Assembly (NCBI RefSeq): GCF_055900595.2
Contig: NZ_CM148325.1
Reading direction: 5' to 3' (one strand)
Length of the DNA: 64,000 nucleotides
Below the pieces are notes generated by a model, which worked only from the letters and a program-made list of their open reading frames with translations, made no database searches and was not told the origin of the DNA. A program made the position numbers and the translations under genes. Every line of letters starts with the position of its first letter. Within the stretch, counting starts at the first letter, position 1. This document shows, piece by piece, positions 16,081 to 53,003 of this stretch.

Positions 16081-16091
16081 AGGGAGACAAA

Positions 16092-37668: not shown

Positions 37669-38565
37669 ATGCCTTCCGTTGACCTGTCACAGTTACCGGA
37701 ACCGGCCATCATCGCGCAGCCGGATTTTGAGTCCATCCTGGCAGACATTAAAACCATGATGGTGAGCTCCTTCCCGGAAGAATACCGCGCCGCCGTCACC
37801 CGTGCCCTTACTCTGGAATCCGAGCCATTGAACATCATTTCCCAGGCCATGGCCTTTCGTGAAATGCTGCTTCGCCAGCGCATCAATGAAGCCGCCCGCG
37901 CCTGCATGCTCAGCCTCAGCCGGGGCAGTGACCTGGACAATCTGGCCGCCAACAACAACACCCGCCGCCTGGTCATTCATCCGGCCACTGATACCACGGA
38001 AGCAGTGATGGAAAGCGACACATCGCTGCGTCTGCGTGCCCAGTCAGCCTGGGACGGCCTGAGTGTGGCCGGACCGTCCGGCGCGTATGAGTATTTTGCC
38101 CGGAGCGCAAGCGGTCTTGTCCGTGATGCGCGCGCCATCAGCCCGTCACCGGCCACAGTCACCGTCTCCATCCTGTCAGCAGACGGTGACGGCACCGCCG
38201 GTGAGGCGTTACTGAACACGGTGCGCACCGCCCTGAATGCCGAGAACGTGCGCCCGGTTGCCGACCGCCTGACTGTGCAGAGTGCTACCATCGTGAACTG
38301 GGTAATGGAAGCGAAGCTGTATTTTTATCCAGGGCCGGAGTCTGAACCCATGCTTGCGGCCGCTGACGCCGCTTTCCGTGCATGGCTGGCAGACCAGGGC
38401 CGTATCGGTCAGGACGTGGCCCTGTCAGCCATCACTGCAGCGCTGCATGTTCACGGTGTCCAGCGCGTTGAGGTCATAAAACCCACGCAGAACATCACCA
38501 TCAGTGACACTCAGGCAGCCAGATGTACCACATTCAGCATCAGCGAAGGAGGACGCAATGAGTGA
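37669..38565 (+). CDS. J: baseplate assembly protein J
   Basis: 298 aa, P2 J-like. Confidence 0.8.
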   Translation: MPSVDLSQLPEPAIIAQPDFESILADIKTMMVSSFPEEYRAAVTRALTLESEPLNIISQAMAFREMLLRQRINEAARACMLSLSRGSDLDNLAANNNTRRLVIHPATDTTEAVMESDTSLRLRAQSAWDGLSVAGPSGAYEYFARSASGLVRDARAISPSPATVTVSILSADGDGTAGEALLNTVRTALNAENVRPVADRLTVQSATIVNWVMEAKLYFYPGPESEPMLAAADAAFRAWLADQGRIGQDVALSAITAALHVHGVQRVEVIKPTQNITISDTQAARCTTFSISEGGRNE

Positions 38566-39121
38566 CAGGAAAAAAACAGACAGCGCACAGCACAGTACAT
38601 CACTGCTTCCACCGTCCGCAGGGCCATTCATGCGCGCCACAGAGGCGACAGGAGTACGCATCAGTACCATACCGGTGGACGCCGACACCCTGTGGTCGCC
38701 GGACCGCTGCCCTGCTCACCTCCTGCCCTACCTTGCATGGGCATGTTCCGTTGACTGCTGGGACCGCAACTGGCCGGAAGAGACCAGGCGACAGGTGATT
38801 CGGGACGCATGGATGATACATCGCCACAAAGGGACCATCAGTGCACTCCGCCGCATCGTTGAACCACTGGGCTACCTCATCCGTGTATCAGAATGGTGGG
38901 AGTTTGACGGCTCGCCCGGGACCTTCACCATTGAGATTGGCACACTTGAAACCGGAGTAAGTGAAGAGCTGCATGAAGAAATGGAGCGTCTGATTGCCGA
39001 TGCGCGCCCCGTCAGCCGCCACCTCGTGGGGCTTAGTATCATCCAGGAAATACACGGTGCCATTTACGACGCTGCCGCAGGTTACGACGGCGACATCATC
39101 ACCATTTACCCGGAAGACTGA
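38558..39121 (+). CDS. I: baseplate/tail fibre-associated protein I
   Basis: 187 aa from MSDRKKTD. Confidence 0.75.
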   Translation: MSDRKKTDSAQHSTSLLPPSAGPFMRATEATGVRISTIPVDADTLWSPDRCPAHLLPYLAWACSVDCWDRNWPEETRRQVIRDAWMIHRHKGTISALRRIVEPLGYLIRVSEWWEFDGSPGTFTIEIGTLETGVSEELHEEMERLIADARPVSRHLVGLSIIQEIHGAIYDAAAGYDGDIITIYPED

Positions 39122-39124
39122 ACC

Positions 39125-41359
39125 ATGAGCACGAGAAAATTCAGAACCCTTATCACCGACATCGGGCTGGCAAAGCTGGCCGCAACAACGGCGCCTGGCG
39201 GTAGACCTGTACGCCTTACGCACATGGCTGTAGGGGACGGCAATGGAGAGCTTCGTCAGCCGCAGAAAAACCAGACATCGCTTTACAATGAGGTTTGGCG
39301 CCAGTCTGTCAACCGCGTCTTCACCGACCCGGAGAACCCGAACCGCCTCATCGCCGAACTGGTCATTCCTCCTGAAACCGGCGGATTCTGGGTGCGTGAA
39401 ATTGGTGTGTTTGATGATACAGGTACAATGATTGCAGTAGGAAATACCGCTGAAAGTTACAAGCCCACCAGAGAGGAAGGTTCAGGGCGGGCGCAGATAT
39501 TCCGTGCAGTAATCACCGTCACCTCCGACGCCGTGGTGGAACTGGTCATGGACACAACAACAATTCTGCCGACCACGGACTACATTGATGAGAAAATGGC
39601 GGAACACGCACGTTCCCGTAACCACCCTGACGCGACACTGACAGAAAAAGGATTCACCCAACTGAGCAGCGCCACAAACAGCACCTCTGAAACACTGGCC
39701 GCCACACCGAAGGCCGTCAAGGCTGCATATGACCTTGCAGCCGGTAAAGCACCCGCCAGCCACACCCACCCGTGGAATCAGATAACTGGTGTGCCATCAG
39801 CCTCGCTGACGGCAAAAGGCACCGTACAGCTGAGCAGTGCCACAAACAGTGAGTCAGAGACTGAGGCGGCCACCCCCAAAGCGGTTAAAGCCTTACACGA
39901 TATGGTGACGAGCAAGTATACAGGACAGGATGCAACCACCGGACGCAAAGGCATCGTACAGCTGAGCAGCGCCACAAACAGCAATTCCGAAACACTGGCG
40001 GCCACACCGAAGGCAGTAAGTGATGCACTGAGCATGGCGTTCGTGAAGCCAACAACATCCCTGGGGGAAACAGACCTGAACACTCTGGGGCGTAAGGAAG
40101 ACGCGGGAGATTATTACCAGCAGAGTGACTCAGGTGCGAGAACAGACAGAAACTATCCTGTAGAGAAGGCAGGAGAGTTACGCATCCGTGTTGGTGCATG
40201 GGGATTCTGCCAGCATGAATACACGAGCTGGGATCCGCCACGAAAATTTATCAGGACAGTTACCGGAAACTTTAACGGTAACGGCCCATGGTCAGAGTGG
40301 GTGGAGGTGACAAACACAGATGCAACAACTGGACGCAAAGGCATCGTACAGCTGAGCAGCGATACAAACAGCAATTCCGAAACGCTGGCGGCCACACCAA
40401 GAGCCGTCAAGGCTGCATATGACCTTGCAGCCGGTAAAGCACCCGCCAGCCACACCCACCCGTGGAATCAGATAACAGGTGTGCCATCAGCCTCGCTGAC
40501 GGCAAAAGGCACCGTACAGCTGAGCAGTGCCACAAACAGTGAGTCAGAGACTGAGGCCGCCACCCCCAAAGCGGTTAAAGCCTTACACGATATGCTGACG
40601 AGCAAGTATACAGGACAGGATGCAACCACCGGACGCAAAGGCATCGTACAGCTAAGCAGCGCCACAAACAGCAATTCCGAAACGCTGGCGGCCACACCAA
40701 AAGCTGTTAAAGCTGCGTATGACCTTGCCAACAGCAAAGCCTCGGCAGCCCACACTCATCGCTGGGCTCAGATCACAGACGCCCCTGTTTTTTCGTCTGT
40801 TGCCCGCGTCATCATGGGTAAACAAAGCATAAAAGATATTCTTGATTACTTTGGTTTAGGAGAAGGCTCGACGCTGCCAGTTGGCGTACCCGTTCCGTGG
40901 CCTTCGTCAAGACCACCTGAGGGGTGGTTACAGTGCAACGGTGCCGCATTCACGCGTACAAAATACCCAAAACTGGCGGTGGCCTACCCTGACCTCAGGC
41001 TACCAGATTTGCGCGGGGAATTTATTCGTGGATGGGATGACCTGCGAATGATTGACAGGGGACGCTTATTGTTATCCACACAGGAAGCAACATATATTTG
41101 TACCGCCATACAGGCGTACCACGGCGTAGCGGGAGGTGCAGATATTCAGGCAGGGATTTCATTTGCATCACATGATAACGACATCATAAACATAACCCCT
41201 GATCAACCCAGAACCGGTAACGGCATCCTGTACGGCACAAAACCAGTTGACAGATGGGCAATAGCCAGAGCCGGTAAGCTGGTGAGTAATGAAAAAGACA
41301 GATGGATAGCGATCAGACCGCGCAATATCGCTTTTAATTATATTGTGAGGGCAGTTTAA
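39125..41359 (+). CDS. H: tail fibre protein (P2 gpH family) with internal repeats
   Basis: 744 aa; repeated GxVQLSSATNSxSETxAATPKAVK units. Confidence 0.85.
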   Translation: MSTRKFRTLITDIGLAKLAATTAPGGRPVRLTHMAVGDGNGELRQPQKNQTSLYNEVWRQSVNRVFTDPENPNRLIAELVIPPETGGFWVREIGVFDDTGTMIAVGNTAESYKPTREEGSGRAQIFRAVITVTSDAVVELVMDTTTILPTTDYIDEKMAEHARSRNHPDATLTEKGFTQLSSATNSTSETLAATPKAVKAAYDLAAGKAPASHTHPWNQITGVPSASLTAKGTVQLSSATNSESETEAATPKAVKALHDMVTSKYTGQDATTGRKGIVQLSSATNSNSETLAATPKAVSDALSMAFVKPTTSLGETDLNTLGRKEDAGDYYQQSDSGARTDRNYPVEKAGELRIRVGAWGFCQHEYTSWDPPRKFIRTVTGNFNGNGPWSEWVEVTNTDATTGRKGIVQLSSDTNSNSETLAATPRAVKAAYDLAAGKAPASHTHPWNQITGVPSASLTAKGTVQLSSATNSESETEAATPKAVKALHDMLTSKYTGQDATTGRKGIVQLSSATNSNSETLAATPKAVKAAYDLANSKASAAHTHRWAQITDAPVFSSVARVIMGKQSIKDILDYFGLGEGSTLPVGVPVPWPSSRPPEGWLQCNGAAFTRTKYPKLAVAYPDLRLPDLRGEFIRGWDDLRMIDRGRLLLSTQEATYICTAIQAYHGVAGGADIQAGISFASHDNDIINITPDQPRTGNGILYGTKPVDRWAIARAGKLVSNEKDRWIAIRPRNIAFNYIVRAV
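39690..40010 (+). repeat. internal direct repeat copy 1 within tail fibre gene
   Basis: near-identical to 40350..40690. Confidence 0.7.
40350..40690 (+). repeat. internal direct repeat copy 2 within tail fibre gene
   Basis: near-identical to 39690..40010. Confidence 0.7.
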
Positions 41360-41970
41360 TGAGTAACACTGCAGTTCTGGATGAAAACGGTATCGCCACT
41401 TTCGCAGGCGATATCACTGTATATCACTATGATGAGGAAACCCGGGAATACACCTCATCCTCTGTGGAGTATCTCGCCCTGGGGGTGGGTACCCCGGCAC
41501 ATTCATGCGCCGATGCCCCGCCAGAGGCAATGCCGGGTTACGTGATTTGCCGGACGTCCACGCTGGACGGGTGGGAGTATGTCCCCGATCATCGTGGAGA
41601 GACGGTATACAGCACAGAGAACGGTAATCCGGTCCAGATTACCCAACCAGGTGACTACCCGGAAGGGACAACGACAAAACAGCCTGCCACACCATGGGAT
41701 ACCTGGAACGGTGAGGCGTGGGTAACCGATACAGAACGGCAGCAAGCCGAAGAGCTGGAGGTTGCCAGACAGCAACGCAAGGAACGGGTGGATCAGGCGA
41801 TGAAGTCCATCGACCTCATCAACCTTAAGTTGCGGGCAGGTCGCAGTCTGACACCAGAAGAAACGGCAAAACTGAATGCCGTGCTGGATTATATCGACGA
41901 GCTGAACGCACTGGATATCAGCACGGAGCCTGAAATAAGCTGGCCGGAAACACCACCAGAAATGGAATGA
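41359..41970 (+). CDS. G: tail fibre assembly chaperone (P2 gpG family)
   Basis: 203 aa immediately after H with ATGA-type coupling. Confidence 0.8.
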   Translation: MSNTAVLDENGIATFAGDITVYHYDEETREYTSSSVEYLALGVGTPAHSCADAPPEAMPGYVICRTSTLDGWEYVPDHRGETVYSTENGNPVQITQPGDYPEGTTTKQPATPWDTWNGEAWVTDTERQQAEELEVARQQRKERVDQAMKSIDLINLKLRAGRSLTPEETAKLNAVLDYIDELNALDISTEPEISWPETPPEME

Positions 41971-42023
41971 GCGGGGAAAAGGAACGGGCATTCATAAATA
42001 ATTCATCATGCAGGTGCCGCAAG

Positions 42024-42043
42024 AATGCGGCACATTACCTTCA
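42024..42043. terminator. bidirectional hairpin between convergent G and U (GTGCCGCA-AGAA-TGCGGCAC)
   Basis: perfect 8-bp stem. Confidence 0.5.
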
Positions 42044-42529
42044 CATCAGATCATTTACGCCGCTTACTGTGGTATTCCAGACCGAACTTAACTTCCCTTT
42101 CATTCCCGAAAGCATATCAGACACCGGCGACGAGGCCATACTCTCCCGCAAATCCTCATCACAGCGTTCCAGACTGACAGTGAACTCAATTTTTTTGGCC
42201 TTACCGTGGCGGTCAAGTTCGCTTCGCGTTGTGCGGACAGCCGTTATCACATACATGCCGTATATCTGCCCCACACCGTCAATCAGCGGCCATGGGCGAC
42301 CAGTGTAAGCCTGCGTCGTTAAAAGGCTGAGGGAAACCTCACCGCCGGTAATTTCGGGATAAAGCACACCGGACAACGTGATCTGGTCGTCACCCGCCCC
42401 GATATACTGCCAGCTGGCCGAACGATTGATGCGTTCATTTTTAACGTGGCGCCAGGTTTTATTATGTTGCAGTTGTTGATGAGGCAGCGTACGCAACTCA
42501 AAAACAAACATGCCGTAAATCATCATCAT
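42041..42529 (-). CDS. U: tail protein U
   Basis: 162 aa, P2 U-like (MMMIYGMFVFELRTLP...). Confidence 0.85.
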   Translation of the reverse strand: MMMIYGMFVFELRTLPHQQLQHNKTWRHVKNERINRSASWQYIGAGDDQITLSGVLYPEITGGEVSLSLLTTQAYTGRPWPLIDGVGQIYGMYVITAVRTTRSELDRHGKAKKIEFTVSLERCDEDLRESMASSPVSDMLSGMKGKLSSVWNTTVSGVNDLM

Positions 42530-42540
42530 GCGAGGTACTC

Positions 42541-45500
42541 CTAATCTCTGTCACGGAAACTACCGACTGTCTGGCGGATACGGCGTTCCATTTCCGCACG
42601 GACGGCATCACCCACCATTTTTGCCAGTTCGCGCGGGTTTTGCGTGTGAACATCATGCAGGTGAATATGCAGTTCGCCAGTTAATCCCCATGGTGCCGGC
42701 TCACTCTGGCGCGGTCGGGGCGATGCGGGGGATATGGGCTGGCGCACAGCCTCAACCACCGGACGGGATGTTGCCGCCATCACTGGTGTCATTAGCGGGG
42801 AGAACGTCGGCATGACATCGTGAGTCATAACCGGTTTGATCACCGGCGGAACCACTGGCGTAATATTACCGGACAGTACCGGACGGACGACCGGAGGAAT
42901 AACCGGCACATTATTCACGGACACCACCGGCTTCACGACCGGCGACACGTTCGCCGTGGTGGATATCAGCGGCGAAACACTGACAGGCGGTGGCGCTGGC
43001 AGCGGTGGCAACGAAGGCACACTGACCGACGGCACCTGCGGCAGTCTGACAGGTGGCTCACTGACACTACCCGGTAACAGGGAAGCTGCTCGGTTAAAGC
43101 GTTCCTCCTTCCACTCACCACGAACGGCCAGCGCTTCCGGCAGGTTTTTAAAGATAATATCGCCGGGACCAGCGCGTTTTTTCGCCTGTTTCGCCTCATC
43201 CAGCAGACCACCGGTGTTATCGACGATTTTGTTCAGGCGGCGCATAGTGCCGGTATTCTCCCCCGTCAGGGGTGGTTGCCCCCCTTTGGGTTTTTCGCCG
43301 TCTTTTTTATCCTCGTCCTTTTTCGGCGGATTAATGACGTTAACATCCGCCAGAAGCATGGCAGCTTTCTCGTTCAGCAACTCCTTCTGTTTTAGTTCTT
43401 CCGCCTTTTTCCGGGCGCGCTCAACCGCCGACGGAATCAGCCCGAGTTTTTCCAGCACCCGGGTTAATGAGTCAATCAGCAGCGTAACCGGACCGGTCAC
43501 CAGATTGCTGATAAACTCCCCGACCTTCTGCCCGAACGTACGCCCGGCTTCCGTGCACTTGTCCAGCTCATCCTTTGTTGTGCTTACCGGCGCGAACAAA
43601 TCCACGAACCACTGCCACACACGCCCGATTGTCTGCCCGACATACTCAAACAGCGGTCCCAGTGGTGCCACAGCCTCGCGCAGTGGCGTAAGCCCCTGCC
43701 ACAGGCCGGACAAGAACCCGCCCACGACAGCCTTCAGCTGGTCCCAGTGCCGCCAGATAAGCACTGCCGCACCGACCAGTGTCGCCACCACAAGGCCCAC
43801 CGGACTTAACAGAAAACCCAGCGCCCCGCCAAGTGCGCCCACCGCACCACTCACCATCCCCCACAGTGCGGGCAGACCTGACAGTCTGAGCGCCAGTATT
43901 CCGATACCGCGCCCCAGTGAAATCAGTGCGCCGCCAGGTGAAGTGAACGCAGCCAGCAGACCACCACGCAGCGCGCCAAGTCCCGCCTGCACACCACGAA
44001 GCCGCCCCGCAACTACGCCCAGCAGTGCAGCAAACCGTCCGGCACCGGAGGTGATACCGACAAACAGCACGCGCCAGCCACCGATACCGCCCAGCGGACC
44101 ACCGAGTACGCCGCGCAGCTGCGTCAGTAACGGCAGCGCACGACCGAGGCCGGATGTGCCGGTCAGCAGGGCAAACCCAAGACGCAGTTTTGCCAGCGGC
44201 CCCATCAACACACCAGTGGCAAGTGACAGCGCCCCCATGGCCGCAACCGCAGCCAGCAGTACACCACCGGCAATCAGCAGTTGTTTTGTCAGTTCAGGGT
44301 GCGCCTGAGCCAGCGCGGTGACTTTCGCAATAACCCGGGTGAACGACTGCGTGACAGAACGCAGCGGCCCGTCAACGAGGTCAGCGACACGGATACGCAG
44401 TCCTTCCCATGCGCTGTTCAGTGATTTCAGGTCACCGTCCAGGTTATCAGCCATAACACGGGCAGTGTGATTAAGTTCCCCGGTGGCCAGTTCAATCTCC
44501 TGCGTAAGACGGGGAAGATTATTTTCCCCCGCCGCAGTGACAAGATTCATCAGGGAAACATAGGACTCCTGCCCGGCAATAGCCCTGAAAAAGGAGACCT
44601 GCGCGGCATTACCGTATTTTCGGGTGGCCTGGTACAGCTCATTCAGGATATTTTCCATCCGGCGCATGTTCCCGTAAGCATCCTGCGTCTCCACGCCAAG
44701 CTCTTTCAGTGCCATTGCAGCGGCCTTCGGCGGATCAACCAGACGTGACAGACTGGCACGCAGCGCCGTACCTGCATCACTTCCACGGATCCCCACACTG
44801 CCAAGGACACCCGTCATGGCTGCCGCCTGTTCAAGGGACAGGCCAAGTGAAGCTGCAACCGGACCCGTGTACTTCATGGTTTCACCCAGCGAACGGAGAT
44901 CCGTATTGGTTCGTGTGAAGGTGGCGGCCAGCGTGTCACCCACGCGATCCATCTGGTCAGCGGACAGACCAAACTGTGTGAGGATATTCGAACTGATATC
45001 GGCAGTCTGTCCCAGGTCCATCCCTGCAGCCATTGCCAGATCAAGCACGCCGGGTAGCGCCGCCTGTATGGCCTGTGGTGTGAAGCCGGCCATGGCAAGG
45101 AACGCCTGACCGCTGGCAGCATCACCGGCGGTAAACTGCGTTTCAGAGCCCAGCTTAATGGCCTGTTCGCGCAGCGCCTTAAACTGCGGACTGTTTTTGT
45201 CAATACGGGTCAGCGCCTGGACGCGCGACATCTCCTTACCAAAACTGACCGCCGGTTGCAGGAAACGTCCGGCCGCATAGCCGCCTGCCGCCGCCGTACC
45301 AACCGCCGTAAGTCCGACCGTTTTAAGTTTTCCCGCCGTCTCCTGAGCACGGGAATATTGCTGGCGTGCCTGCGTGACACGTGCCAGCGCCTGCCGTTCG
45401 CGTTCCAGCTGGTCGTTGTATTGCTGTGTTCGCCGTATGGCCTGTTGAATGGTGTTGTCACTGCCGGAAAGCGCAATACCGTGGCGCCGCAGCTCACCAC

Positions 45501-45852
45501 CCAGTTCGCGCATTCGCTGAACTTCACGCGCACGGACCTCATTGAGACGCTCAAGTTTGAGGCTCAAATCGTTCATCAGCTTTTTCTGTTTGTCAGACAG
45601 CACGGTTCCGGCGCGCTGAATTTGCTGAAGTGCGCTTAACTGGCGTTGCGCCCTGACAATGCCGTTTCCGGCCTTGTTTGCAGCCTCGCGGGCGCGATCA
45701 AATGAACGGGCGTGGCGTTCCAGGTTTTTGATCGCACCCTGCGTTCTCTGTATGGAGTCGCCAAGCTGGCCCATCATGCGACGGGCGTTTTCGGTGGGAC
45801 GGGTCAGCCTGTCAACAGCGCTGAAGGCGACCCGTATATCAAGCGTTTTCAT
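42541..45852 (-). CDS. T: tail tape measure protein (P2 gpT family), extended
   Basis: about 1100 aa; start taken at MKTLDIRVAF where E' terminates; C-terminal Pro/Val-rich repeat region. Confidence 0.85.
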   Translation of the reverse strand: MKTLDIRVAFSAVDRLTRPTENARRMMGQLGDSIQRTQGAIKNLERHARSFDRAREAANKAGNGIVRAQRQLSALQQIQRAGTVLSDKQKKLMNDLSLKLERLNEVRAREVQRMRELGGELRRHGIALSGSDNTIQQAIRRTQQYNDQLERERQALARVTQARQQYSRAQETAGKLKTVGLTAVGTAAAGGYAAGRFLQPAVSFGKEMSRVQALTRIDKNSPQFKALREQAIKLGSETQFTAGDAASGQAFLAMAGFTPQAIQAALPGVLDLAMAAGMDLGQTADISSNILTQFGLSADQMDRVGDTLAATFTRTNTDLRSLGETMKYTGPVAASLGLSLEQAAAMTGVLGSVGIRGSDAGTALRASLSRLVDPPKAAAMALKELGVETQDAYGNMRRMENILNELYQATRKYGNAAQVSFFRAIAGQESYVSLMNLVTAAGENNLPRLTQEIELATGELNHTARVMADNLDGDLKSLNSAWEGLRIRVADLVDGPLRSVTQSFTRVIAKVTALAQAHPELTKQLLIAGGVLLAAVAAMGALSLATGVLMGPLAKLRLGFALLTGTSGLGRALPLLTQLRGVLGGPLGGIGGWRVLFVGITSGAGRFAALLGVVAGRLRGVQAGLGALRGGLLAAFTSPGGALISLGRGIGILALRLSGLPALWGMVSGAVGALGGALGFLLSPVGLVVATLVGAAVLIWRHWDQLKAVVGGFLSGLWQGLTPLREAVAPLGPLFEYVGQTIGRVWQWFVDLFAPVSTTKDELDKCTEAGRTFGQKVGEFISNLVTGPVTLLIDSLTRVLEKLGLIPSAVERARKKAEELKQKELLNEKAAMLLADVNVINPPKKDEDKKDGEKPKGGQPPLTGENTGTMRRLNKIVDNTGGLLDEAKQAKKRAGPGDIIFKNLPEALAVRGEWKEERFNRAASLLPGSVSEPPVRLPQVPSVSVPSLPPLPAPPPVSVSPLISTTANVSPVVKPVVSVNNVPVIPPVVRPVLSGNITPVVPPVIKPVMTHDVMPTFSPLMTPVMAATSRPVVEAVRQPISPASPRPRQSEPAPWGLTGELHIHLHDVHTQNPRELAKMVGDAVRAEMERRIRQTVGSFRDRD

Positions 45853-46002
45853 GCTCTGCGTTCCCGCTGCGAAGGGCCGCCCGCTCACGCCAGGCGACCA
45901 CCTCGCCGGGATCCATCAGGAAGATTTCAGCGGGAGACCAGTTGAAAATAACGGCGATATCCGCCACAAAGTCTTCAATGTGCTCAAAGGGCACGACGGT
46001 TA

Positions 46003-46365
46003 TCAGCCTGCCGTCGCCGCCCCACTCTTCCCGCCAGAGTCCTGACCGGCCAAAAAATTAACCGCCACCCCGCACAGCTGAATAAAATCAGCGGACCCCA
46101 TGCGCTTAAGCAGAACCTCGTCCAGTCGCGGCGAAGTGACGCGCGGGAGTAACTCAAACATCGCGTCCGTTTTCATGTTCAGCACGTCAAGCAGTGACAG
46201 CCCGCGCAGTGAACCGGCCTGCTGTACAGCAGGCGTGATTTCCACATACGTGATTTTTTTGTTACCGAGCACAAGGGGCGTTTTCAGCGTCACGCCGCGC
46301 TCACTGGTCACGTCCGCCGCATCAGCACCGTCAGTAACAGGGGCAACAACCGGATTTTCTTTCAT
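46003..46365 (-). CDS. E: tail assembly chaperone E (E' produced by -1 frameshift, extending to 45839)
   Basis: position between FII and T; slippery TTTTTTG near 3' end; -1 frame stays open until overlapping the T start. Confidence 0.75.
   Translation of the reverse strand: MKENPVVAPVTDGADAADVTSERGVTLKTPLVLGNKKITYVEITPAVQQAGSLRGLSLLDVLNMKTDAMFELLPRVTSPRLDEVLLKRMGSADFIQLCGVAVNFLAGQDSGGKSGAATAG
46051..46057 (-). other. programmed -1 ribosomal frameshift slippery heptamer TTTTTTG (E/E')
   Basis: heptamer 14 codons before the E stop; -1 frame open for about 70 codons. Confidence 0.65.
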
Positions 46366-46415
46366 GCATAAAACCTCAAATCAGGGGGCGACGCCGCGCG
46401 CCGCCGTGGGAAACA

Positions 46416-46934
46416 TTAACCACCAAGACCAATCGCCGAGCGCACGCGGTCCGGGAAGACGTTTTTGCCGTCCTTGCGTTCGATGTGGTTCAGTAAATCA
46501 ATCTCCAGCACCGGACGGTCGTTAATGCTGAGTTTGTAGTAGGTACTCCTGACCGCATAGGTGTGAGACGTGACCTCACCCTGTTTTGCCTCCCCCGTAT
46601 CAATTTCCGTCACGCGGCCGCGAAGCTCAATTTCATACAGGTCGCTCTGCTCTTCATCGTTGTAGTACTCACCGACAAAGCGCAGCAGCGTACCGTCGAT
46701 CGTGCCGCCGTACTTAAGGAACAGTTCGCGGGTCGGCCCGCCCATGGTGAAACTCGCATCCAGCGCGCCGTCATCCAGACCAAGGTCGATATTCACCGCG
46801 CCGGCCATACCACCACCGCGATAGGCTTCCGTTTTACGGGTCAGTTTGGGGGGGGTGAAGCCGGTCACCCTGCCAATCTGGTTCACCCCGTCAGTAAACA
46901 GCGTGAACACCCTGAGATTTTTTGGTACGGCCAT
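46416..46934 (-). CDS. FII: tail tube protein (P2 gpFII family)
   Basis: 172 aa, P2 FII-like. Confidence 0.85.
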   Translation of the reverse strand: MAVPKNLRVFTLFTDGVNQIGRVTGFTPPKLTRKTEAYRGGGMAGAVNIDLGLDDGALDASFTMGGPTRELFLKYGGTIDGTLLRFVGEYYNDEEQSDLYEIELRGRVTEIDTGEAKQGEVTSHTYAVRSTYYKLSINDRPVLEIDLLNHIERKDGKNVFPDRVRSAIGLGG

Positions 46935-48127
46935 TAAGCACCTCCAAGCGTCGCAAATGCAGGACCAAAGAATTCATCAGTAAACGTCTGGTAAAGTTCC
47001 ATATCCTCAAGCGGCGGAACGGGCGTGTACTTGTAGCGGATACGCACGCGTCCCTGACGAAGTTCCGTGGTGCTGTTATCCACCACGTCATACCAGCACT
47101 CCGCACCAATGAGACGTCCTGACGTAACCAGCGCATCCAGTTTTGCGCGAATTGCGCTTAACACGTCTTTCACATTAGCAGGGGTCAGCGGGGCATCAAT
47201 CGTTTCAAACTGCGCTTCCGCAATGGAATCAGCCAGCACCTGAGCGGTTCGCGTGTACACCTCAAAGAGATACGCCTTCGTTTCCGGCGTACGGTTGCCC
47301 CAGAAGCGGAAACCGTTACGGCAAATGATGGTAGTGATTTCCTTGTTGTTGAGATTGTTGGCATCGCTGTCTTCGGACTGAAGGGACCAGAACACCGGGC
47401 TGGAAATACCCAGCACATTTCTTACCGGCACGTTGGACAGCGATTTATGCCAGCCCTGTTCGTGGTCAATACGTGCACGTAAACCGCAGGCGTACGCCGC
47501 AGCCGGGAAGACCTCATTAGCGCCGGATTTCGGGTTATGGGCGATGAAGTCCGGCCAGACCAGCATAAGTTCGCGCTCGTTAAATCTGGCGCGGTAGCTG
47601 ATTGCATCGGCGGGCTTCTTGCAGTTGTGACAGCCCGCGTAGACAAATGCGCGAAGTTTTTCTGCAATTACACACAGGGATTTTGTGACAGCTTCAGTAT
47701 CCAGTCCGGGAGCTGCGATGATGCGCGGACGGTAACCGATGGCATCATCCTGTTCAGCTATCAGAAGTGCATACATGCCGGTATAGTTTCCGTCATCATC
47801 AGAACCACCGATAACGAGTTTGTCCTGGGTTTGTCCTGAATGCGTCTCTTCCTTAAATTCAGGAACGCGCACCACAATCACCTTCGTGCTCACCTGGTCG
47901 GCGACAGCCTTAAGCGATTTGTAAAGCGTCCCCTTTGTGCCGGCCTTACCCAGCACATCACTGACGCGGGTCAGCAGTGTGGGTTTGTTCAGCGGGAACA
48001 GAGTTTCATCCGCGTCATCTGCCGTAGCCACAATACCAATAACACTGGAATCCACATCATTAATGGCGGTGGCAAGGCCGGTACTTTCCCTTACGCGCGC
48101 ACCATGAAAGCGTGTTTCACTCATATG
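46934..48127 (-). CDS. FI: tail sheath protein (P2 gpFI family)
   Basis: about 397 aa from MSETRFHGARV; the six-frame ORF extends further upstream. Confidence 0.85.
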   Translation of the reverse strand, partial: HMSETRFHGARVRESTGLATAINDVDSSVIGIVATADDADETLFPLNKPTLLTRVSDVLGKAGTKGTLYKSLKAVADQVSTKVIVVRVPEFKEETHSGQTQDKLVIGGSDDDGNYTGMYALLIAEQDDAIGYRPRIIAAPGLDTEAVTKSLCVIAEKLRAFVYAGCHNCKKPADAISYRARFNERELMLVWPDFIAHNPKSGANEVFPAAAYACGLRARIDHEQGWHKSLSNVPVRNVLGISSPVFWSLQSEDSDANNLNNKEITTIICRNGFRFWGNRTPETKAYLFEVYTRTAQVLADSIAEAQFETIDAPLTPANVKDVLSAIRAKLDALVTSGRLIGAECWYDVVDNSTTELRQGRVRIRYKYTPVPPLEDMELYQTFTDEFFGPAFATLGGA

Positions 48128-48198
48128 TTTCACCCTTGTCTGGCTGGTTGATTTTGCGTAATCATTACCCACACACGCGGTAATCTCACCCCTTTGAT

Positions 48199-48220
48199 GT
48201 TGTCTCCTGACAGCGACAAC
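48199..48220. promoter_or_regulatory. dyad GTTGTC-N10-GACAAC (contains TGT-N12-ACA) in divergent FI/D intergenic region
   Basis: inverted repeat centred about 55 bp from inferred starts of both FI (minus) and D (plus). Confidence 0.55.
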
Positions 48221-48285
48221 AAAACAGCCATTCAACGCCGCTGCGGTGCATGAAACCATTACAGAACGCACCAGGAGAGAACACC

Positions 48286-49377
48286 ATGAAAGAGCTGTCA
48301 GTTACCGTTCCGTCACCGGATATCGACATCACCATCAACAACAACACACTGGCAAACCTCACAGAGCGACTCATGACGCTGACCCTGACGGATAACCGGG
48401 CCTTTGAGGCAGACCGCGTCACCCTCACCCTTGACGATACGGACGGGCAGTTACAGTTGCCACCACGTGGCGCACGCCTGAGAGTGATGATTGGCTGGCG
48501 AGGAGAATCACTGGTTAACAAGGGCACCTACGTCGTTGATGAGGTTGCGTGGGAAGGACCTCCAGATAAACTGATCATCACCGCCAGCAGCGCAGATTTT
48601 CGGGAAGAGTTCAACGTGAGGCGGGAGGTATCCTGGCACGACGTGACCGTAAAACAGGTTGTGTCAGCCATCGCTCACCGCTACGGCCTGAAGACACAGA
48701 TAAGCGAAATCCTCATGGATATCGAAATTGACCACGCTGACCAGACCGAAGAGAGCGATATATCCTTCCTGACCCGCATGGCTGAAATGCTGGGTGCGAT
48801 TGCCACCGTAAAAAACGGCAGCCTGTTATTCATTCTGCCGGGTGGCGGAACCGGGCCGGACGGAAGAGCCCTGCCTTCGTTCGCCATTACCCGCAGCAGC
48901 GGCGACAGTCACCGCTTTCGCATTGCTGACCGTGATGCGTATACGGGGGTCCGGGCGCACTGGCTCGATCTGAAGTTCGGGCAAAAGAAAAAAGTGAACG
49001 TGAAGCGACGCAGGGAAGCCGGGAAACAGAAACAGGAGAAGAGCAGCAGCCGGGAGGGTGATTACATGGAAGGCGCGGAAGGGAACGTCTACGTTCTGCG
49101 CAGGACTTACCAGAATGAAGAAACCGCACGACGTGCAGCTGCGGCAAAGTGGCAGGAGTTACAGCGGGGAGCAGCGGCATTCTCCATCACTCTGGCACGG
49201 GGTCGTGCCGACCTGTATCCCGAAATGCACGGCAGGGTAACAGGTTTTAAAAGCGAGGTGGACAATCAGGACTGGATTATTGCCAGGGTGGAGCACATCA
49301 TAGATGAAAGCGGCTTCACCACACAACTGGAGCTGGAAGCGAAAATCCCCGAATGGATAGCAGATTCAGGCGGATAA
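48286..49377 (+). CDS. D: tail protein D (late control D family)
   Basis: about 363 aa from MKELSVTVPSP (ORF opens at 48250). Confidence 0.8.
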   Translation: MKELSVTVPSPDIDITINNNTLANLTERLMTLTLTDNRAFEADRVTLTLDDTDGQLQLPPRGARLRVMIGWRGESLVNKGTYVVDEVAWEGPPDKLIITASSADFREEFNVRREVSWHDVTVKQVVSAIAHRYGLKTQISEILMDIEIDHADQTEESDISFLTRMAEMLGAIATVKNGSLLFILPGGGTGPDGRALPSFAITRSSGDSHRFRIADRDAYTGVRAHWLDLKFGQKKKVNVKRRREAGKQKQEKSSSREGDYMEGAEGNVYVLRRTYQNEETARRAAAAKWQELQRGAAAFSITLARGRADLYPEMHGRVTGFKSEVDNQDWIIARVEHIIDESGFTTQLELEAKIPEWIADSGG

Positions 49378-49672: not shown

Positions 49673-49784
49673 GAACAATAATCAGGTTGAGAGGACATCA
49701 TAAGGCAAGTAGATTAACGGCAGATACTTTCCCGCAACCACGGGCAAGTATTTAATTATCCATGATGAAATATGACCTAAATTG

Positions 49785-49817
49785 TTTTTTGCCCGCCGGA
49801 AAGCGGGCATTTTTTTA
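49785..49817 (+). terminator. terminator hairpin copy 1 (GCCCGCCGGAAAGCGGGC plus T-run)
   Basis: first of nine near-identical hairpins in 49.8-53.0 kb. Confidence 0.7.
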
Positions 49818-50030
49818 TTCTTTTGTGGTTATGGGGTCATCAGGAACCACGTGCAGATTATATTTTTGTTTTTTTGGCGTTCCTCCGGCAGCAACGAGTT
49901 CATCAATAAGACACTGACACGCCTGAACATCCCGGGCATGTCTTAGTTTCACCTTTATTGATTTAACCTTATCCTCACCGGAGGAGAAATGCAGTTCAAT
50001 CTCAATATCGTTTCTTCGGAACAATCTCAT
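49815..50030 (-). CDS. 71-aa hypothetical protein, intact copy of a repeated gene
   Basis: MRLFRRNDIEIELHFSSGEDKVKSIKVKLRHARDVQACQCLIDELVAAGGTPKKQKYNLHVVPDDPITTKE; decayed paralogues at 51101..51199 and 51784..51855. Confidence 0.55.
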   Translation of the reverse strand: MRLFRRNDIEIELHFSSGEDKVKSIKVKLRHARDVQACQCLIDELVAAGGTPKKQKYNLHVVPDDPITTKE

Positions 50031-50123
50031 ACGCCCCCTGAATATATCAGAAATACTAGTATCGAAAAATGAGAAAACAGTTAGACAGGAGAAACATATT
50101 AACACAAATCATTTATACCTATA

Positions 50124-50141
50124 GATGAAATTATAATTTCA
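50124..50141. promoter_or_regulatory. perfect 18-bp palindrome ATGAAATTATAATTTCAT with embedded TATAAT
   Basis: about 95 bp upstream of the 71-aa gene; related imperfect palindromes upstream of the decayed copies. Confidence 0.55.
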
Positions 50142-50250
50142 TTCATGAATATGATAGATAACTATATTGTGAACAAAATGAAAAATGGCTAAATTAAAAA
50201 TGGGCATGGAGGAATGCCCGGTTATCAATATAATGTGACGTAGATCATTG

Positions 50251-50281
50251 TTTTGCCCGCCGGAGAGCGGGCATTTTTTTT
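50251..50281 (+). terminator. terminator hairpin copy 2
   Basis: GCCCGCCGGAGAGCGGGC plus T7. Confidence 0.7.
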
Positions 50282-50450
50282 GCGCCTGCCATCGAGGCGC
50301 CTTCCCTGGCGCACACAAAGCAGCCCTGATTTTCCATGAAAACTTCAGGGTTGAGCTGCGGGCACAAAGTGAGTAGATTAGCTACGGGTACCTCCCCCTG
50401 ACAACAGGAAGGGTGTCCATTATCCATGATATACAAACGAAAAGTCTTGT
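50282..50450 (+). ncRNA. repeated ~170-nt structured module S1 (candidate small RNA)
   Basis: bounded by terminator hairpins; internal hairpins (GCGCC..GGCGC, CCCTGA..TCAGGG, CCTTCC..GGAAGG); four paralogous copies. Confidence 0.35.
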
Positions 50451-50481
50451 TTTTTGCCCGCCGAAGCGCGGGCATTTTTTT
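50451..50481 (+). terminator. terminator hairpin copy 3
   Basis: GCCCGCCGAAGCGCGGGC plus T-run. Confidence 0.7.
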
Positions 50482-50607
50482 ATGCATCAGACAAGATACA
50501 GCCCACCCCAACTGACACCTGAAATATTGCCGCAACAAAAAGAAACAGTTAAATTACGCGCGGGTGCCTTTCGGCTGATGGCCGGAGGGAAAACCTGAAG
50601 GCCGGAT

Positions 50608-50841
50608 GTGGAAAGGCCCCGGAAAACATTTCTGTTTAACCGAGGCCCTAACCGCATTACCTTGACAAGTGAAAGGTTAGCGCCTCTCCGGAAAAGGAGC
50701 AAGTGCTATGTCGCAAAAATCGCTTACGGCCATCACGTTCTGCGTGACGGCAATCCTCATCATCTGGATATTGCACGGTTCGCTGTGCGAAATACGGATG
50801 AGCTTCTGGGGAGCGGAGTTTGCGGCGTTCTTACAATGTAA
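50608..50841 (+). CDS. mok-like overlapping reading frame of hok locus
   Basis: 77-aa ORF starting upstream of and overlapping the hok-like frame, as in hok/mok/sok loci. Confidence 0.5.
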   Translation: MERPRKTFLFNRGPNRITLTSERLAPLRKRSKCYVAKIAYGHHVLRDGNPHHLDIARFAVRNTDELLGSGVCGVLTM

Positions 50842-50848
50842 GAAGTAA
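50708..50848 (+). CDS. hok: Hok/Gef-family type I toxin (intact)
   Basis: 46 aa MSQKSLTAITFCVTAILIIWILHGSLCEIRMSFWGAEFAAFLQCKK; single TM plus conserved SLCEIR motif; 5' GGGTGCCT (50552) complementary to 3' AGGCACCC (50906). Confidence 0.8.
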   Translation: MSQKSLTAITFCVTAILIIWILHGSLCEIRMSFWGAEFAAFLQCKK

Positions 50849-50934
50849 GGAAACCGCGACGGGGGAGCAATCCCCCGTCAATCGGTTGCCAGGGTAAGGT
50901 CGATAAGGCACCCTATCTCACAGACATGAACAAC

Positions 50935-50970
50935 AAACCCGCAGCATAAAAACTGCGGGTTTTCTTTTTG
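50935..50970 (+). terminator. rho-independent terminator of hok transcript
   Basis: AACCCGCAG-CATAAAAA-CTGCGGGTT followed by TTCTTTTT. Confidence 0.7.
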
Positions 50971-51100
50971 GTGTCCTCACCGACTTGAAACAGTGATCAG
51001 ACTATAAGACAAAGCCCGCAATGTTGCGGGCTTACTCTACCTCTCGAAAATGTGGTCACTGCGTGGACATACGCTGATACAAATCCTTTATATCAATAAA

Positions 51101-51199
51101 TTAAATCTTTGTTTTTTTCATCAACAATGATTTAACCTTATCCTCACCGGAGGAGAAATGCAGTTCAATCTCAATATCGTTTCTGTGGAACAGCCTCAT
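51101..51199 (-). pseudogene. truncated paralogue of the 71-aa gene
   Basis: MRLFHRNDIEIELHFSSGEDKVKS then divergent and stop after 32 codons; retains AGGAGG RBS. Confidence 0.55.
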
Positions 51200-51414
51200 A
51201 AGACAACCTCCTGAATTCATCAGAAACACAGTCAACTGAAAACCAGAAAGCAGACAAACAGTGGACACACATTAATACAAATCATTTATACCTATAGATG
51301 AAATTGCAGTTTCATCTATAACATGACAGGTAACAATATTGTGAAAAAACTCAAAACTCGTTAGATTAAAGACGGACAGAGCAATGCTACTTTATCAATA
51401 ACATGTAACCTGTA

Positions 51415-51445
51415 CTTCCTTATTTTGCCCGCCGAAGCACGGGCA
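51415..51445 (+). terminator. terminator hairpin copy 4
   Basis: GCCCGCCGAAGCACGGGC plus T-run. Confidence 0.7.
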
Positions 51446-51621
51446 TTTTTTTTGCGCCTGCCATCGAGGCGCCTTCCCTGGCGCACACAAAGCAGCCCTG
51501 ATTTTCCATGAAAACTTCAGGGTTGAGCCAAAAGCACAAAGACAGTAGATTAACCACGGGTGCCTTCCACCTGACAACAGGAAGGGTGTCCAGTATCAAT
51601 GACAGACAACTCACATTGCTG
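51446..51621 (+). ncRNA. structured module S2
   Basis: paralogue of S1. Confidence 0.35.
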
Positions 51622-51651
51622 TTTTGCCCGCCGGAAAGCGGGCATTTTTTT
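51622..51651 (+). terminator. terminator hairpin copy 5
   Basis: GCCCGCCGGAAAGCGGGC plus T-run. Confidence 0.7.
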
Positions 51652-51783
51652 ATTCTTTTGTGGTTATTGGGTCATCAGGAACAACATGCAGATTATGCTT
51701 TGATTTTTTTGGTGTTATTACAGCAGCAACGAGTTTATTAATAAGACACTGACATGCCTGAACATCCCTGACATATCATAATT

Positions 51784-51855
51784 TCACTTTATTTTTTTAG
51801 CTTGTCCTTTCTGGAGCAGAAATATCTCAACATCGTTTCTGTGGAACAACCTCAT
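51784..51855 (-). pseudogene. decayed paralogue of the 71-aa gene
   Basis: MRLFHRNDVEIF then frameshift; 3' region still alignable to the intact copy. Confidence 0.5.
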
Positions 51856-52071
51856 TTGCCCCTGAATGTATCATAAATATCAGCATCGGAAAACCAACAG
51901 CAATACAGAAGAAACATGTTAATGCAAATCACTTATACCTATAGATGAAATTACAGTTTTGTTCATAAATATGATAAGTAACTATATTGTGAATAAAATG
52001 AAAACTAGCTAAATTAAACGTGGGCATGGTGGAATGCCTCGTAATCAATAATACATGATCCGTACTTCCTT

Positions 52072-52102
52072 GTTTTGCCCGCCGGAAAGCGGGCATTTTT
52101 TT
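52072..52102 (+). terminator. terminator hairpin copy 6
   Basis: same hairpin. Confidence 0.7.
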
Positions 52103-52270
52103 GGCGGTTACCATCGCCTCACCTTCCTGGTTCACATGAAGCAACCCTGATTTTCCATGAAAACTTCAGGGTTGAGACAAAAGCACAAAGACAGTAGATT
52201 AACCACGGGTACCTTCCACCTGACAACAGGAAGGCTGTCCAGTATCAATGACAGACAACTCACATTGCTG
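52103..52270 (+). ncRNA. structured module S3
   Basis: paralogue of S1/S2. Confidence 0.35.
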
Positions 52271-52299
52271 TTTTGCCCGCCGGAAAGCGGGCTTTTTTT
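52271..52299 (+). terminator. terminator hairpin copy 7
   Basis: same hairpin, T-run after GGGC. Confidence 0.7.
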
Positions 52300-52471
52300 G
52301 GCAGTTATCATAGCCGCACCTTCCTGGCACATATGAAGCAACCCTGATTTTCCATGAAAACTTCAGGGTTGAGACAAAAGCACAAAAACAGTAGATTAAC
52401 CACGGGTGCCTGCCACCTGACAACAGGAAGGGGTGTCCATTATCCATGATATACAAACGAAAAGTCTTGTC
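52300..52471 (+). ncRNA. structured module S4
   Basis: paralogue, 3' end like S1. Confidence 0.35.
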
Positions 52472-52501
52472 TTTTGCCCGCCAAAGCGCGGGCATTTTTT
52501 T
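52472..52501 (+). terminator. terminator hairpin copy 8
   Basis: GCCCGCCAAAGCGCGGGC plus T-run. Confidence 0.7.
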
Positions 52502-52712
52502 ATGCATCAGACAAGATACAGCCCACCCCAACTAACACCTGAAATATTGCCGCAACAAAAAGAAACGGGTGCCTTTCGGCTGATGGCCGGAGGGAAAACC
52601 TGAAGACCGGATGTGGAAAGGCCCCGGAAAACATCTGTGTTTAACCGAGGCCTGACCCTTCCTACCGTGACAAGTGGAAGGTTAGCGCCTCTTTGTAAAA
52701 GGAGCAAGCGCT

Positions 52713-52853
52713 ATACCGCAAAAAACGATTATTGTTGGCATTTTATGCCTGACAATAACCCTGGTCATCTGGATGGTCCACGATTCGTTATGTGAATTCA
52801 GCTTTGATATCTGAGGAGCGCGTTTTGCGGCGTTCTTGCAGTGTAAACCGTAA
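52713..52853 (+). pseudogene. hok-like toxin pseudogene (second copy)
   Basis: paralogous to 50708..50848 but start codon is ATA and an in-frame TGA replaces the Trp codon; mok-like frame 52613..52795 retained. Confidence 0.7.
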
Positions 52854-52948
52854 GAAACCGCAGCGGGGGAGAAATTCCCCGCTATCCGGTTGTTGGGGTG
52901 GGCCGATATGGCGCCCTTTCCCTGTAGAGACAAAACAAAAAACCAGAT

Positions 52949-52975
52949 TTGCCCGCCATTGAGAGGGCTTTTTTG
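52949..52975 (+). terminator. degenerate terminator hairpin copy 9
   Basis: GCCCGCCATTGAGAGGGC plus T6. Confidence 0.45.
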
Positions 52976-53003
52976 TCACCCTCACCAGTGAGGGCATCAT
53001 CAT

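What the first reader, a model, noticed from the sequence alone, without database searches (positions are those of the whole stretch)
39650..40720. Two near-identical ~330-bp direct repeats inside the tail fibre gene
The repeats encode the same collar-like TGRKGIVQLSSATNS...AATPKAV units. They are a substrate for homologous recombination that would lengthen or shorten the fibre, and can also cause assembly collapse.
Basis: seen in the sequence. Interest (0 to 1): 0.35.

Follow-up and report, generated by a model that had tools for sequence, protein, structure and literature searches.

The report
Repeat modules in prophage tail fibre
A tail fibre gene of a P2-like E. coli prophage holds two nearly identical 300-370 bp blocks of ordinary fibre-shaft repeats on either side of a small knob domain; related prophages differ in the number and order of these repeats, which is a well-known way for phage fibres to vary.

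Summary
Window 39647-40019 recurs 690 bp downstream at 40337-40709 (93% identity), with a 296-bp core (39713-40008 vs 40403-40698) that differs at 5 bases.

Both copies lie in frame in a 744-aa P2 gpH-type tail fibre gene (39125-41359). The repeats are not "collar-like". They are blocks of Pfam PF03406 fibre-shaft repeats, six units in all. They flank a 104-aa internal domain with the fold of the R-pyocin fibre knob.

The recombination reading is supported by comparison:
- E. coli prophages with the same head and tip carry 5-8 units, with or without the knob (626-868 aa). Many of these alleles are on complete chromosomes.
- The exact products predicted for this allele exist in public data: a 690-bp deletion (514 aa) and a 390-bp knob deletion (614 aa). 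The 974-aa expansion does not.
- The 514-aa forms occur only in short-read metagenome-type contigs or contigs from highly fragmented NCBI assemblies of unchecked type.
- Alleles also differ mostly at the five copy-diagnostic sites, each changed to the other copy's base.

This is an ordinary, well-documented instance of a known kind. Interest is low to moderate.

The parts
39125..41359 (+). Tail fibre gene (P2 gpH type), 744 aa
   Evidence: ORF. Pfam: PF12571 at aa 4-151, six PF03406 stretches, PF07484 at aa 587-634. Annotated 'tail fiber protein' in identical RefSeq loci.
39125..39640 (+). N-terminal domain (aa 1-172), the same in all length variants
   Evidence: PF12571 Phage_tail_fib. Found at 99% identity or more in 27 of 5426 complete E. 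coli genomes, 35 places.
39647..40019 (+). Repeat copy A (near-identical core 39713-40008). It covers most of unit 1 (all but its first two codons), all of unit 2 and the motif of unit 3.
40337..40709 (+). Repeat copy B (near-identical core 40403-40698). It covers most of unit 4 (all but its first two codons), all of unit 5 and the motif of unit 6.
   Evidence: Copy B is 1-2 mismatches from the single-copy module of the 756-868-aa alleles.
39641..39808 (+). Unit 1, long type (56 aa, linker with an HTH motif: SHTHPW)
39809..39940 (+). Unit 2, short type (44 aa)
39941..40330 (+). Unit 3, knob type (130 aa: repeat motif followed by the knob)
40019..40330 (+). Internal knob domain (aa 299-402) with a pyocin-knob-like fold
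40331..40498 (+). Unit 4, long type
40499..40630 (+). Unit 5, short type
40631..41356 (+). Unit 6 plus the C-terminal receptor-binding part (242 aa). The Collar domain is at 40883-41026.
   Evidence: PF07484. Sequence matches to the T4 gp37 tip (2xgf) and to Mu fibre S (5yvq).
41359..41970 (+). Tail fibre assembly chaperone (gpG/Tfa type)
   Evidence: PF02413 Caudo_TAP, E 4.5e-27.
37669..39121 (+). Baseplate genes J and I, directly upstream
   Evidence: PF04865 and PF09684.

Best explanation
The two repeats are a segmental duplication inside the shaft-coding part of a P2 gpH-type tail fibre gene. Each copy encodes a long linker, a short unit and the next motif of the PF03406 fibre repeat. Together they bracket an internal pyocin-knob-like domain. 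Because the units are interchangeable, in-frame modules of a trimeric shaft, homologous exchange between them gives functional-looking fibres that differ in unit number, unit order and presence of the knob. The exchange could occur within the gene, between sister chromosomes, or with related prophages in the same cell. The exact runs of 80, 74, 58, 36 and 29 bp at the 690-bp offset, and of 31 and 20 bp at the 390-bp offset, would serve as crossover sites. Shown: the repeat, the domain layout, the allele series, the existence of the exact predicted deletion products, and the exchange of copy-diagnostic bases between copies. Inferred: that RecA-type recombination is the agent, and that shaft length or the knob changes adsorption or host range. 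The same repeats also mislead short-read assemblers, which most likely explains the 514-aa forms.
For: Repeat and reading frame.
Domain layout.
Knob fold. Knob is internal in homologues.
Allele series with the same N172 head and T242 tail. The arrangements are L-S-K-L-S-T (744 aa, this window), L-L-S-K-L-L-T (812), L-S-K-L-L-T and L-L-S-K-L-T (756), two 800-aa forms, 856, 868, 670 (L-S-L-S-L-T) and 626 (L-S-L-L-T, no knob). Several lie on contigs of 4.4-5.7 Mb.
The 296-bp module occurs once in five alleles and twice in two.
Four of the five differences between the copies are synonymous. Other unit pairs that encode almost the same motif are only 68-91% identical in DNA. The high identity therefore reflects recent common descent or gene conversion, not protein constraint.
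Exact look-up: both 514-aa and both 614-aa predicted products exist. The 614-aa contigs equal the window minus 390 bp, with breakpoints in the 31-nt or 20-nt identity runs and no other mismatch.
Among 744-aa variants, residues 261/491 are V/L in 48, L/L in 14 and V/V in 11. In DNA, most differences between alleles sit at the five diagnostic sites and carry the other copy's base. This includes two complete genomes and a 4.76-Mb contig.
Co-resident related prophages with different alleles occur in single genomes.
Against: No experiment or read-level data shows recombination happening. All evidence comes from comparing finished assemblies.
The allele is stable at 744 aa in 22 complete-genome records, and one exact protein is on 444 contigs, so exchange is rare on the scale of strain divergence.
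No lengthened (974-aa) derivative was found.
The 514-aa products, and possibly the base flips at diagnostic sites, may be assembly or polishing artefacts rather than biology.
The three 614-aa contigs are short (3.7-4.6 kb) pieces of draft assemblies.
The functional effect of unit number or of the knob is untested.
Confidence: 0.85

Rival explanations
1. The duplication in this window is itself an assembly artefact: a false expansion of a single-copy module.
For: Repeats of this size can confuse assemblers. Forms with a single module (514 aa) exist in public assemblies.
Against: Twenty-two complete-genome records (about 15 distinct genomes) have the same 2846-bp gene pair at 99.8-100% identity. 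The exact protein is on 444 contigs, up to 5.8 Mb long. The two copies have different 5' flanks (76% identity) and five fixed differences. Each copy is closest to a different natural allele.
Confidence: 0.02
2. The 514-aa (690-bp deletion) forms in public data are real in vivo deletion derivatives that circulate in gut E. coli, not assembly collapses.
For: They are exact in-frame products. Seven of ten have a junction pattern consistent with a single crossover. Mosaic states at the diagnostic sites also occur in full-length alleles of complete genomes, so mosaic junctions do not prove an artefact. Deletion between 300-bp direct repeats that lie 690 bp apart is expected in E. coli (established knowledge of RecA-dependent and RecA-independent repeat deletion).
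Against: All eleven contigs are from short-read metagenome, Logan or highly fragmented NCBI assemblies, and none exceeds 30 kb. None of the 22 complete-genome records has this form. Four MEGAHIT-style contigs from one ERZ2728xxxx series show three different junction patterns, which would need several independent deletions in one study. Six SPAdes-style metagenome contigs are all full length.
Confidence: 0.3
3. The gene is a fusion of two once-separate fibre genes. The knob would be the former C-terminal receptor-binding tip of the first gene, and the second repeat block the start of the second gene.
For: The layout reads as head, repeats, globular domain, repeats, tip. Tail fibre genes are known mosaics.
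Against: In 149 homologue-bearing proteins the knob is internal. The median is 185 residues after the last knob, and only 2 have fewer than 40. It often occurs in 2-4 copies. Its structural matches are the internal knobs of R-pyocin fibres and T4 gp34. Copy B does not start with a fibre N-terminal domain.
Confidence: 0.05
4. The DNA identity is kept only by selection on the protein repeat, and the repeats play no part in recombination.
For: The PF03406 motif is strongly conserved at the protein level across many phages.
Against: Synonymous sites are also nearly identical: four of the five differences are synonymous, in 296 bp. Units 1, 3, 4 and 6 encode almost the same motif with only 73-91% DNA identity. 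Allele differences concentrate at the copy-diagnostic sites and take the other copy's base.
Confidence: 0.03

Closest known systems
Bacteriophage P2 tail fibre gpH with its chaperone gpG (Haggard-Ljungquist, Halling and Calendar 1992, J Bacteriol 174:1462; cited from my own knowledge and from the reference list of PMC13100340)
   Same: Same N-terminal family (PF12571). Same gene position after baseplate genes J and I, followed by a Tfa chaperone. Same PF03406 motif (QLSSATNSxSETLAATPKAV) after the N-terminal domain.
   Different: As I recall it, P2 gpH has two such units and no knob. This gene has six units plus an internal knob, and a different tip that contains a Collar domain. In this prophage the tube and sheath genes are inverted relative to P2.
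R1/R2 pyocin fibres of Pseudomonas aeruginosa (PDB 6cl5, 6cl6, 6ct8, 6cu2) and the 'pyocin knob' mobile pseudo-domain of the RBPseg atlas (PMC12143355; PMC11871291)
   Different: Sequence identity is only about 20%. There is one knob rather than two, embedded between PF03406 repeats. No lectin-like foot domain was detected. Sugar binding is untested.
Motif-mediated shuffling of tail fibre genes: Sandmeier 1994 (Mol Microbiol 12:343) for P1, Mu, p15B and lambda Stf; Tetart et al. 1996 and 1998 (J Mol Biol) for T-even gp37 duplications and His-box recombination. Cited from my own knowledge; not held in the library.
   Same: Short conserved in-frame motifs inside fibre genes act as crossover points. 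They produce duplications, deletions and swaps that alter the fibre.
   Different: Here the evidence is a natural allele series in E. coli prophages, not selected host-range mutants. No host-range consequence is shown.
Phage Mu tail fibre S (PDB 5yvq, 8ju3)
   Same: Sequence match of unit 6 plus its HTH linker (aa 498-556) to Mu S residues 110-166, E 1.5e-7. Also chaperone-dependent.
   Different: Mu varies its fibre tip by site-specific inversion (G segment). No invertase and no inverted repeats are present here.

Membership tests
Pfam PF03406 Phage_fiber_2 (phage tail fibre repeat) | Match to the 42-position profile above the gathering score, in repeated copies | tested here: met
   342 bits against a cut-off of 22; six stretches; E 1.3e-104.
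P2 gpH-type tail fibre | PF12571 N-terminal domain | tested here: met
   169.5 bits, aa 4-151.
P2 gpH-type tail fibre | Gene order J-I-H followed by a Tfa/gpG chaperone, inside a P2-like prophage | tested here: met
   PF04865, PF09684 and PF02413 on the neighbouring genes. P2-type portal, terminase, scaffold, capsid, gpA, gpU and gpD elsewhere in the window.
P2 gpH-type tail fibre | Trimeric fibre attached to the baseplate that binds a host surface receptor | not testable with these tools
   Needs virion structure or adsorption assays.
   The only Collar match is aa 587-634, downstream of both repeats.
Pyocin-knob fold | Structural similarity of the inter-repeat domain to the knob domains of R-pyocin fibres | tested here: met
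Pyocin-knob fold | Saccharide binding or a role in target recognition | not testable with these tools
   Only suggested for pyocin Knob2 in the literature (PMC11871291).
Repeat-mediated length polymorphism by homologous recombination | Alleles with identical flanks that differ by whole repeat units | tested here: met
   At least 13 arrangements, 626-868 aa.
Repeat-mediated length polymorphism by homologous recombination | Exact predicted crossover products of this allele exist | tested here: inconclusive
   The 514-aa and 614-aa products were found and the 974-aa product was not. The 514-aa forms are probably collapses. The 614-aa forms are clean deletions but sit on short draft contigs.
Repeat-mediated length polymorphism by homologous recombination | Recombination observed in vivo, and its dependence on RecA or a phage recombinase | not testable with these tools
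   Needs long reads or PCR on cultures.
Invertible tail fibre segments (Gin/Cin/Min type) | Inverted repeats flanking the variable part, plus a nearby invertase | tested here: not met
   No inverted-repeat pairs in 38500-42500. The neighbouring genes are the chaperone and gpU.
Diversity-generating retroelement (template and variable repeat) | Differences between the repeats confined to adenines of one copy, a variable repeat at the 3' end of the target gene, and a reverse transcriptase nearby | tested here: not met
   The five differences are T/A, G/C, G/C, G/A and A/G, so they are not adenine-specific. Both copies lie in the shaft, not at the C-terminus. No reverse transcriptase is among the annotated or scanned neighbours.

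The most novel reading that the evidence does not exclude
The repeat cassette could act as a built-in, high-frequency switch. Unequal exchange and gene conversion among the units, and with co-resident sister prophages, would keep every lysogen population seeded with fibres of different length and with or without the knob. That would be bet-hedging against variation in host surface polysaccharide, similar in effect to invertible or retroelement-driven fibre variation but needing no dedicated enzyme.
Probability: 0.08. Interest if true: 0.5.

Novelty: new member of a known kind. Interest (0 to 1): 0.25.

Why it matters
Biologically, this is a clear natural example of modular fibre evolution. One prophage lineage of E. 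coli carries a graded series of fibres that differ only in shaft units and in one knob domain. Such a series could be used to test how fibre length and knob domains affect adsorption.

Practically, it is a caution for databases. The 514-aa 'tail fiber protein' entries are probably collapsed assemblies. Single-base differences between alleles at the five copy-diagnostic sites may be repeat cross-talk rather than mutation. Neither point changes current understanding of phage fibres.

Tried and rejected
- Tandem Repeats Finder found nothing, because the 690-bp period is beyond its range. The fixed-offset comparison replaced it.
- Sequence searches of the knob against Pfam and PDB gave nothing usable. 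Structure prediction and fold search were needed.
- I first took mosaic junction patterns in three 514-aa contigs (ABABB, BAABB, ABAAB) as proof of assembly collapse. I withdrew that argument after finding similar mosaic states in full-length alleles of complete genomes.
- The association with assembler is suggestive only: 4 of 4 k141_ contigs are collapsed against 0 of 6 NODE_ contigs. The METAG-scaffold contigs, whose assembler I did not verify, are mostly full length.
- DGR, invertible-segment, RNA-element and internal-promoter readings were considered and rejected. There are no inverted repeats. Mismatches are not adenine-specific. There is no Rfam hit in the gene. Promoter-like and terminator-like sites are at the level seen in shuffles.
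- No tRNA is present in the window, so the integration site was not pursued.
- Literature searches for prior descriptions of unit-number variation in P2-type fibres found no specific paper. The 1992 P2 fibre paper is not held.
Full report
**Observation**

The region holds a strong direct repeat. The repeat finder reports 39647-39946 and 40337-40636 at 94% identity, 690 bp apart. It also reports a four-copy 160-nt family starting at 39629, 39929, 40319 and 40619.

A base-by-base comparison at the 690-bp offset gives these figures:
- A 296-bp core (39713-40008 vs 40403-40698) with five mismatches, or 98.3% identity.
- A 66-bp 5' stretch before the core at 76% identity.
- The whole block, 39647-40019 vs 40337-40709, at 93.3% identity.
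- A longest exact run of 80 bp. Fifty shuffles of 38500-42500 give a mean of 11.3 and a maximum of 14.

The other repeat families in the region are 22-24 nt at 75-77% identity, which is the level of chance.

**Anatomy**

Both copies lie in frame in one ORF, 39125-41359, of 744 aa. Pfam gives this layout:
- PF12571, the N-terminal domain of P2-type fibres, at aa 4-151.
- Six stretches of PF03406, 'phage tail fibre repeat', at 342 bits.
- One PF07484 Collar domain at aa 587-634.

Upstream are baseplate genes J and I. Downstream is a Tfa chaperone, PF02413. The window is E. coli chromosome, with a complete P2-like prophage inserted between dmsA and serS.

Cutting the protein at the QLSS motif gives six units: long (56 aa), short (44 aa), knob-bearing (130 aa), long, short, and a last unit joined to the 242-aa tip. 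I write this as L-S-K-L-S-T.

Copy A runs from unit 1 to the motif of unit 3. Copy B runs from unit 4 to the motif of unit 6. The near-identical core is a long linker, a short unit and the next motif.

The Collar domain lies outside the repeats.

**The domain between the copies**

Residues 299-402 match no Pfam family and no PDB sequence. They do match internal parts of several PHROG fibre families.

A full scan of 1.84 billion cluster representatives found 256 proteins with this domain at E of 0.001 or better. In the best 149:
- The domain is internal; the median is 185 residues after the last copy.
- Only two proteins have fewer than 40 residues after it.
- It is often present in two to four copies.

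An AlphaFold model built from a 40-sequence alignment has a mean pLDDT of 93.3. Its structural matches are:
- Foldseek: best matches are R2 and R1 pyocin fibres (probability 1.00, TM 0.64-0.65).

The literature describes the pyocin knob as a mobile pseudo-domain of tail fibres (PMC12143355) and as possibly saccharide-binding (PMC11871291). This argues against reading the gene as a fusion of two complete fibres.

**Comparison across prophages**

Among 5426 complete E. coli genomes:
- The whole gene pair is present at full length and at 99.8% identity or more in 22 records, about 15 distinct genomes.
- The N-terminal domain occurs at 35 places in 27 genomes.
- The knob occurs at 29 places in 25 genomes.

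Relatives with the same 172-aa head and 242-aa tail have different middles:

| Length (aa) | Arrangement |
|---|---|
| 812 | L-L-S-K-L-L-T |
| 756 | L-L-S-K-L-T |
| 626 | L-S-L-L-T, no knob |
| 670 | L-S-L-S-L-T, no knob, with the 296-bp module twice at a 300-bp period |
| 868 | L-L-S-K-L-L-L-T |

A 901-aa allele has ten units and a different tip.

Among the best 120 database relatives there are further arrangements of 756, 800, 812 and 856 aa. Several of these lie on contigs of 4.4-5.7 Mb, so they are not short-read artefacts. Some genomes carry two or three related prophages with different alleles.

At the DNA level:
- The long linkers are 92-100% identical within and between alleles.
- Copy B of the window is 1-2 mismatches from the single module of the 756-868-aa alleles.
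- Copy A is closest to the 626-aa allele, at 3 mismatches.

**Predicted products of this allele**

I built the proteins expected from a crossover between copy A and copy B: a deletion of 514 aa and a duplication of 974 aa. I also built the product of a crossover between the motifs of units 3 and 4, a knob deletion of 614 aa. I then looked each up by exact sequence among about 15 billion proteins.

Both 514-aa variants exist, on 8 and 3 contigs read. Both 614-aa variants exist, on 1 and 2 contigs. Neither 974-aa variant exists.

The 614-aa contigs equal the window with a clean 390-bp deletion. The breakpoints lie in the 31-nt run (two contigs) or the 20-nt run (one contig) of exact identity. 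There is no other mismatch in 1845 bp. Two different breakpoints imply independent events. A deletion from the common 744-aa allele is therefore more parsimonious than the reverse. These contigs are short pieces of draft isolate assemblies, so the case is good but not closed.

**Are the 514-aa forms real?**

They come only from short-read metagenome assemblies, highly fragmented NCBI assemblies and one Logan contig. None is longer than 30 kb. No complete genome has a 514-aa or 614-aa form. After the 22 full-length hits, the next-best match covers only 66% of the query.

Four MEGAHIT-style contigs from one accession series show three different junction patterns at the five diagnostic sites: BBBBB twice, AABBB and ABBBB. 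That would require several independent deletions in one study. Six SPAdes-style metagenome contigs are all full length.

I rate assembly collapse at about 70% for these forms. Read mapping would settle it.

**Exchange between the copies**

Among 73 distinct 744-aa variants, the one residue pair that distinguishes the copies (V261 and L491) is V/L in 48, L/L in 14 and V/V in 11. It is never L/V.

At the DNA level, most differences between 744-aa alleles fall on the five diagnostic sites and carry the other copy's base. This holds in complete genomes:
- CP100500: copy A reads BBAAA and copy B reads BBABB.
- CP070393: copy B reads BBABB.
- A 4.76-Mb contig: copy A reads AABAB.

In CP100500, three of the seven differences hit these ten positions. 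By my rough estimate the chance probability is below 1e-6. This is either gene conversion, within the gene or with a co-resident prophage, or polishing cross-talk. It also means that mosaic junctions cannot be used as proof of collapse, an argument I first made and then withdrew.

**Mechanism and rivals**

The best-supported account is a segmental duplication of interchangeable shaft modules that serves as a substrate for homologous exchange. The products are fibres with different unit number and with or without the knob. My confidence is 0.85.

The exact runs at the 690-bp offset (80, 74, 58, 36 and 29 bp) exceed the roughly 25-bp minimum for efficient RecA-mediated exchange in E. coli. That figure is established knowledge and was not tested here. 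The 31-nt and 20-nt runs at the 390-bp offset are borderline, which fits the rarity of the 614-aa forms.

That recombination is the agent, and that length or knob affects adsorption, are inferences.

The rivals are:
- A false duplication in this window (0.02).
- Real circulating 514-aa deletions (0.3 for that sub-question).
- A fusion of two fibres (0.05).
- Identity kept by protein selection alone (0.03). This is contradicted because four of the five differences are synonymous, while other units encode the same motif at 68-91% DNA identity.

Readings as an invertible segment, a DGR, an RNA element or an internal promoter were tested and not met.

**Comparison with what is known, and verdict**

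The gene is a member of the P2 gpH family and carries the known PF03406 repeat and a known knob fold. Motif-mediated duplication, deletion and swapping in fibre genes has been described since the 1990s: Haggard-Ljungquist 1992, Sandmeier 1994, and Tetart 1996 and 1998. I cite these from my own knowledge.

What is specific here is the allele series in one E. coli prophage lineage and the likely collapsed entries in public data. I rate it a new member of a known kind, with interest 0.25.

Noticed in passing
window 42041-49377: The tail tube and sheath module (gpU 42041-42529, tape measure 42541-45888, tube 46416-46934, sheath 46934-48271) is on the minus strand and converges on the fibre and chaperone genes. 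gpD (48250-49377) is on the plus strand, and ogr follows it on the plus strand in the identical locus of LH10-b-1. As I recall it, P2 has all of these genes co-linear, so this lineage carries an inverted tail block.
   Followed up: partly
L005 (NZ_CP100530.1 3140196-3157688) compared with window 16193-49700: At the same dmsA|serS site, strain LH10-b-1 holds a head-less remnant of about 17.5 kb. It has an identical fibre and chaperone and a frameshifted tape measure gene. The window has the full prophage, with portal, terminase, scaffold and capsid genes.
   Followed up: partly
window 39125-41359; proteins P0027, P0029, P0036, P0053 and others: Several NCBI and UniRef records name this tail fibre protein 'Short-chain fatty acid transporter'. 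This is an evident annotation error that has spread across entries.
   Followed up: no
window 39787, 39868, 39905, 39964, 39994 and the same positions +690: Differences between otherwise identical 744-aa alleles concentrate on these five copy-diagnostic sites and flip to the other copy's base. This also occurs in complete genomes (CP100500, CP070393). It is either gene conversion or polishing cross-talk.
   Followed up: partly
window 21614-21812 and 15987-16121: Rfam hits: isrK (21614-21689) and C4 antisense RNA (21725-21812) lie side by side in the prophage early region. sRNA STnc130 (15987-16121) lies between dmsA and the integrase gene.
   Followed up: no
window 39740-39775 and 40430-40465 (L linkers); 40740-40765 (last unit): Every long linker carries an H-T-H motif (SHTHPW, or AHTHRW in the last unit). 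In a trimer this could form a six-histidine metal site, like the HxH sites I recall from the T4 gp37 fibre tip. This is inference only.
   Followed up: no
window 49700-53400: The roughly 3.7 kb between the end of the prophage (ogr) and serS has no ORF of 150 aa or more. The matching stretch in LH10-b-1 is annotated only with a small hypothetical gene and a Hok/Gef toxin gene, leaving about 2.6 kb without features.
   Followed up: no
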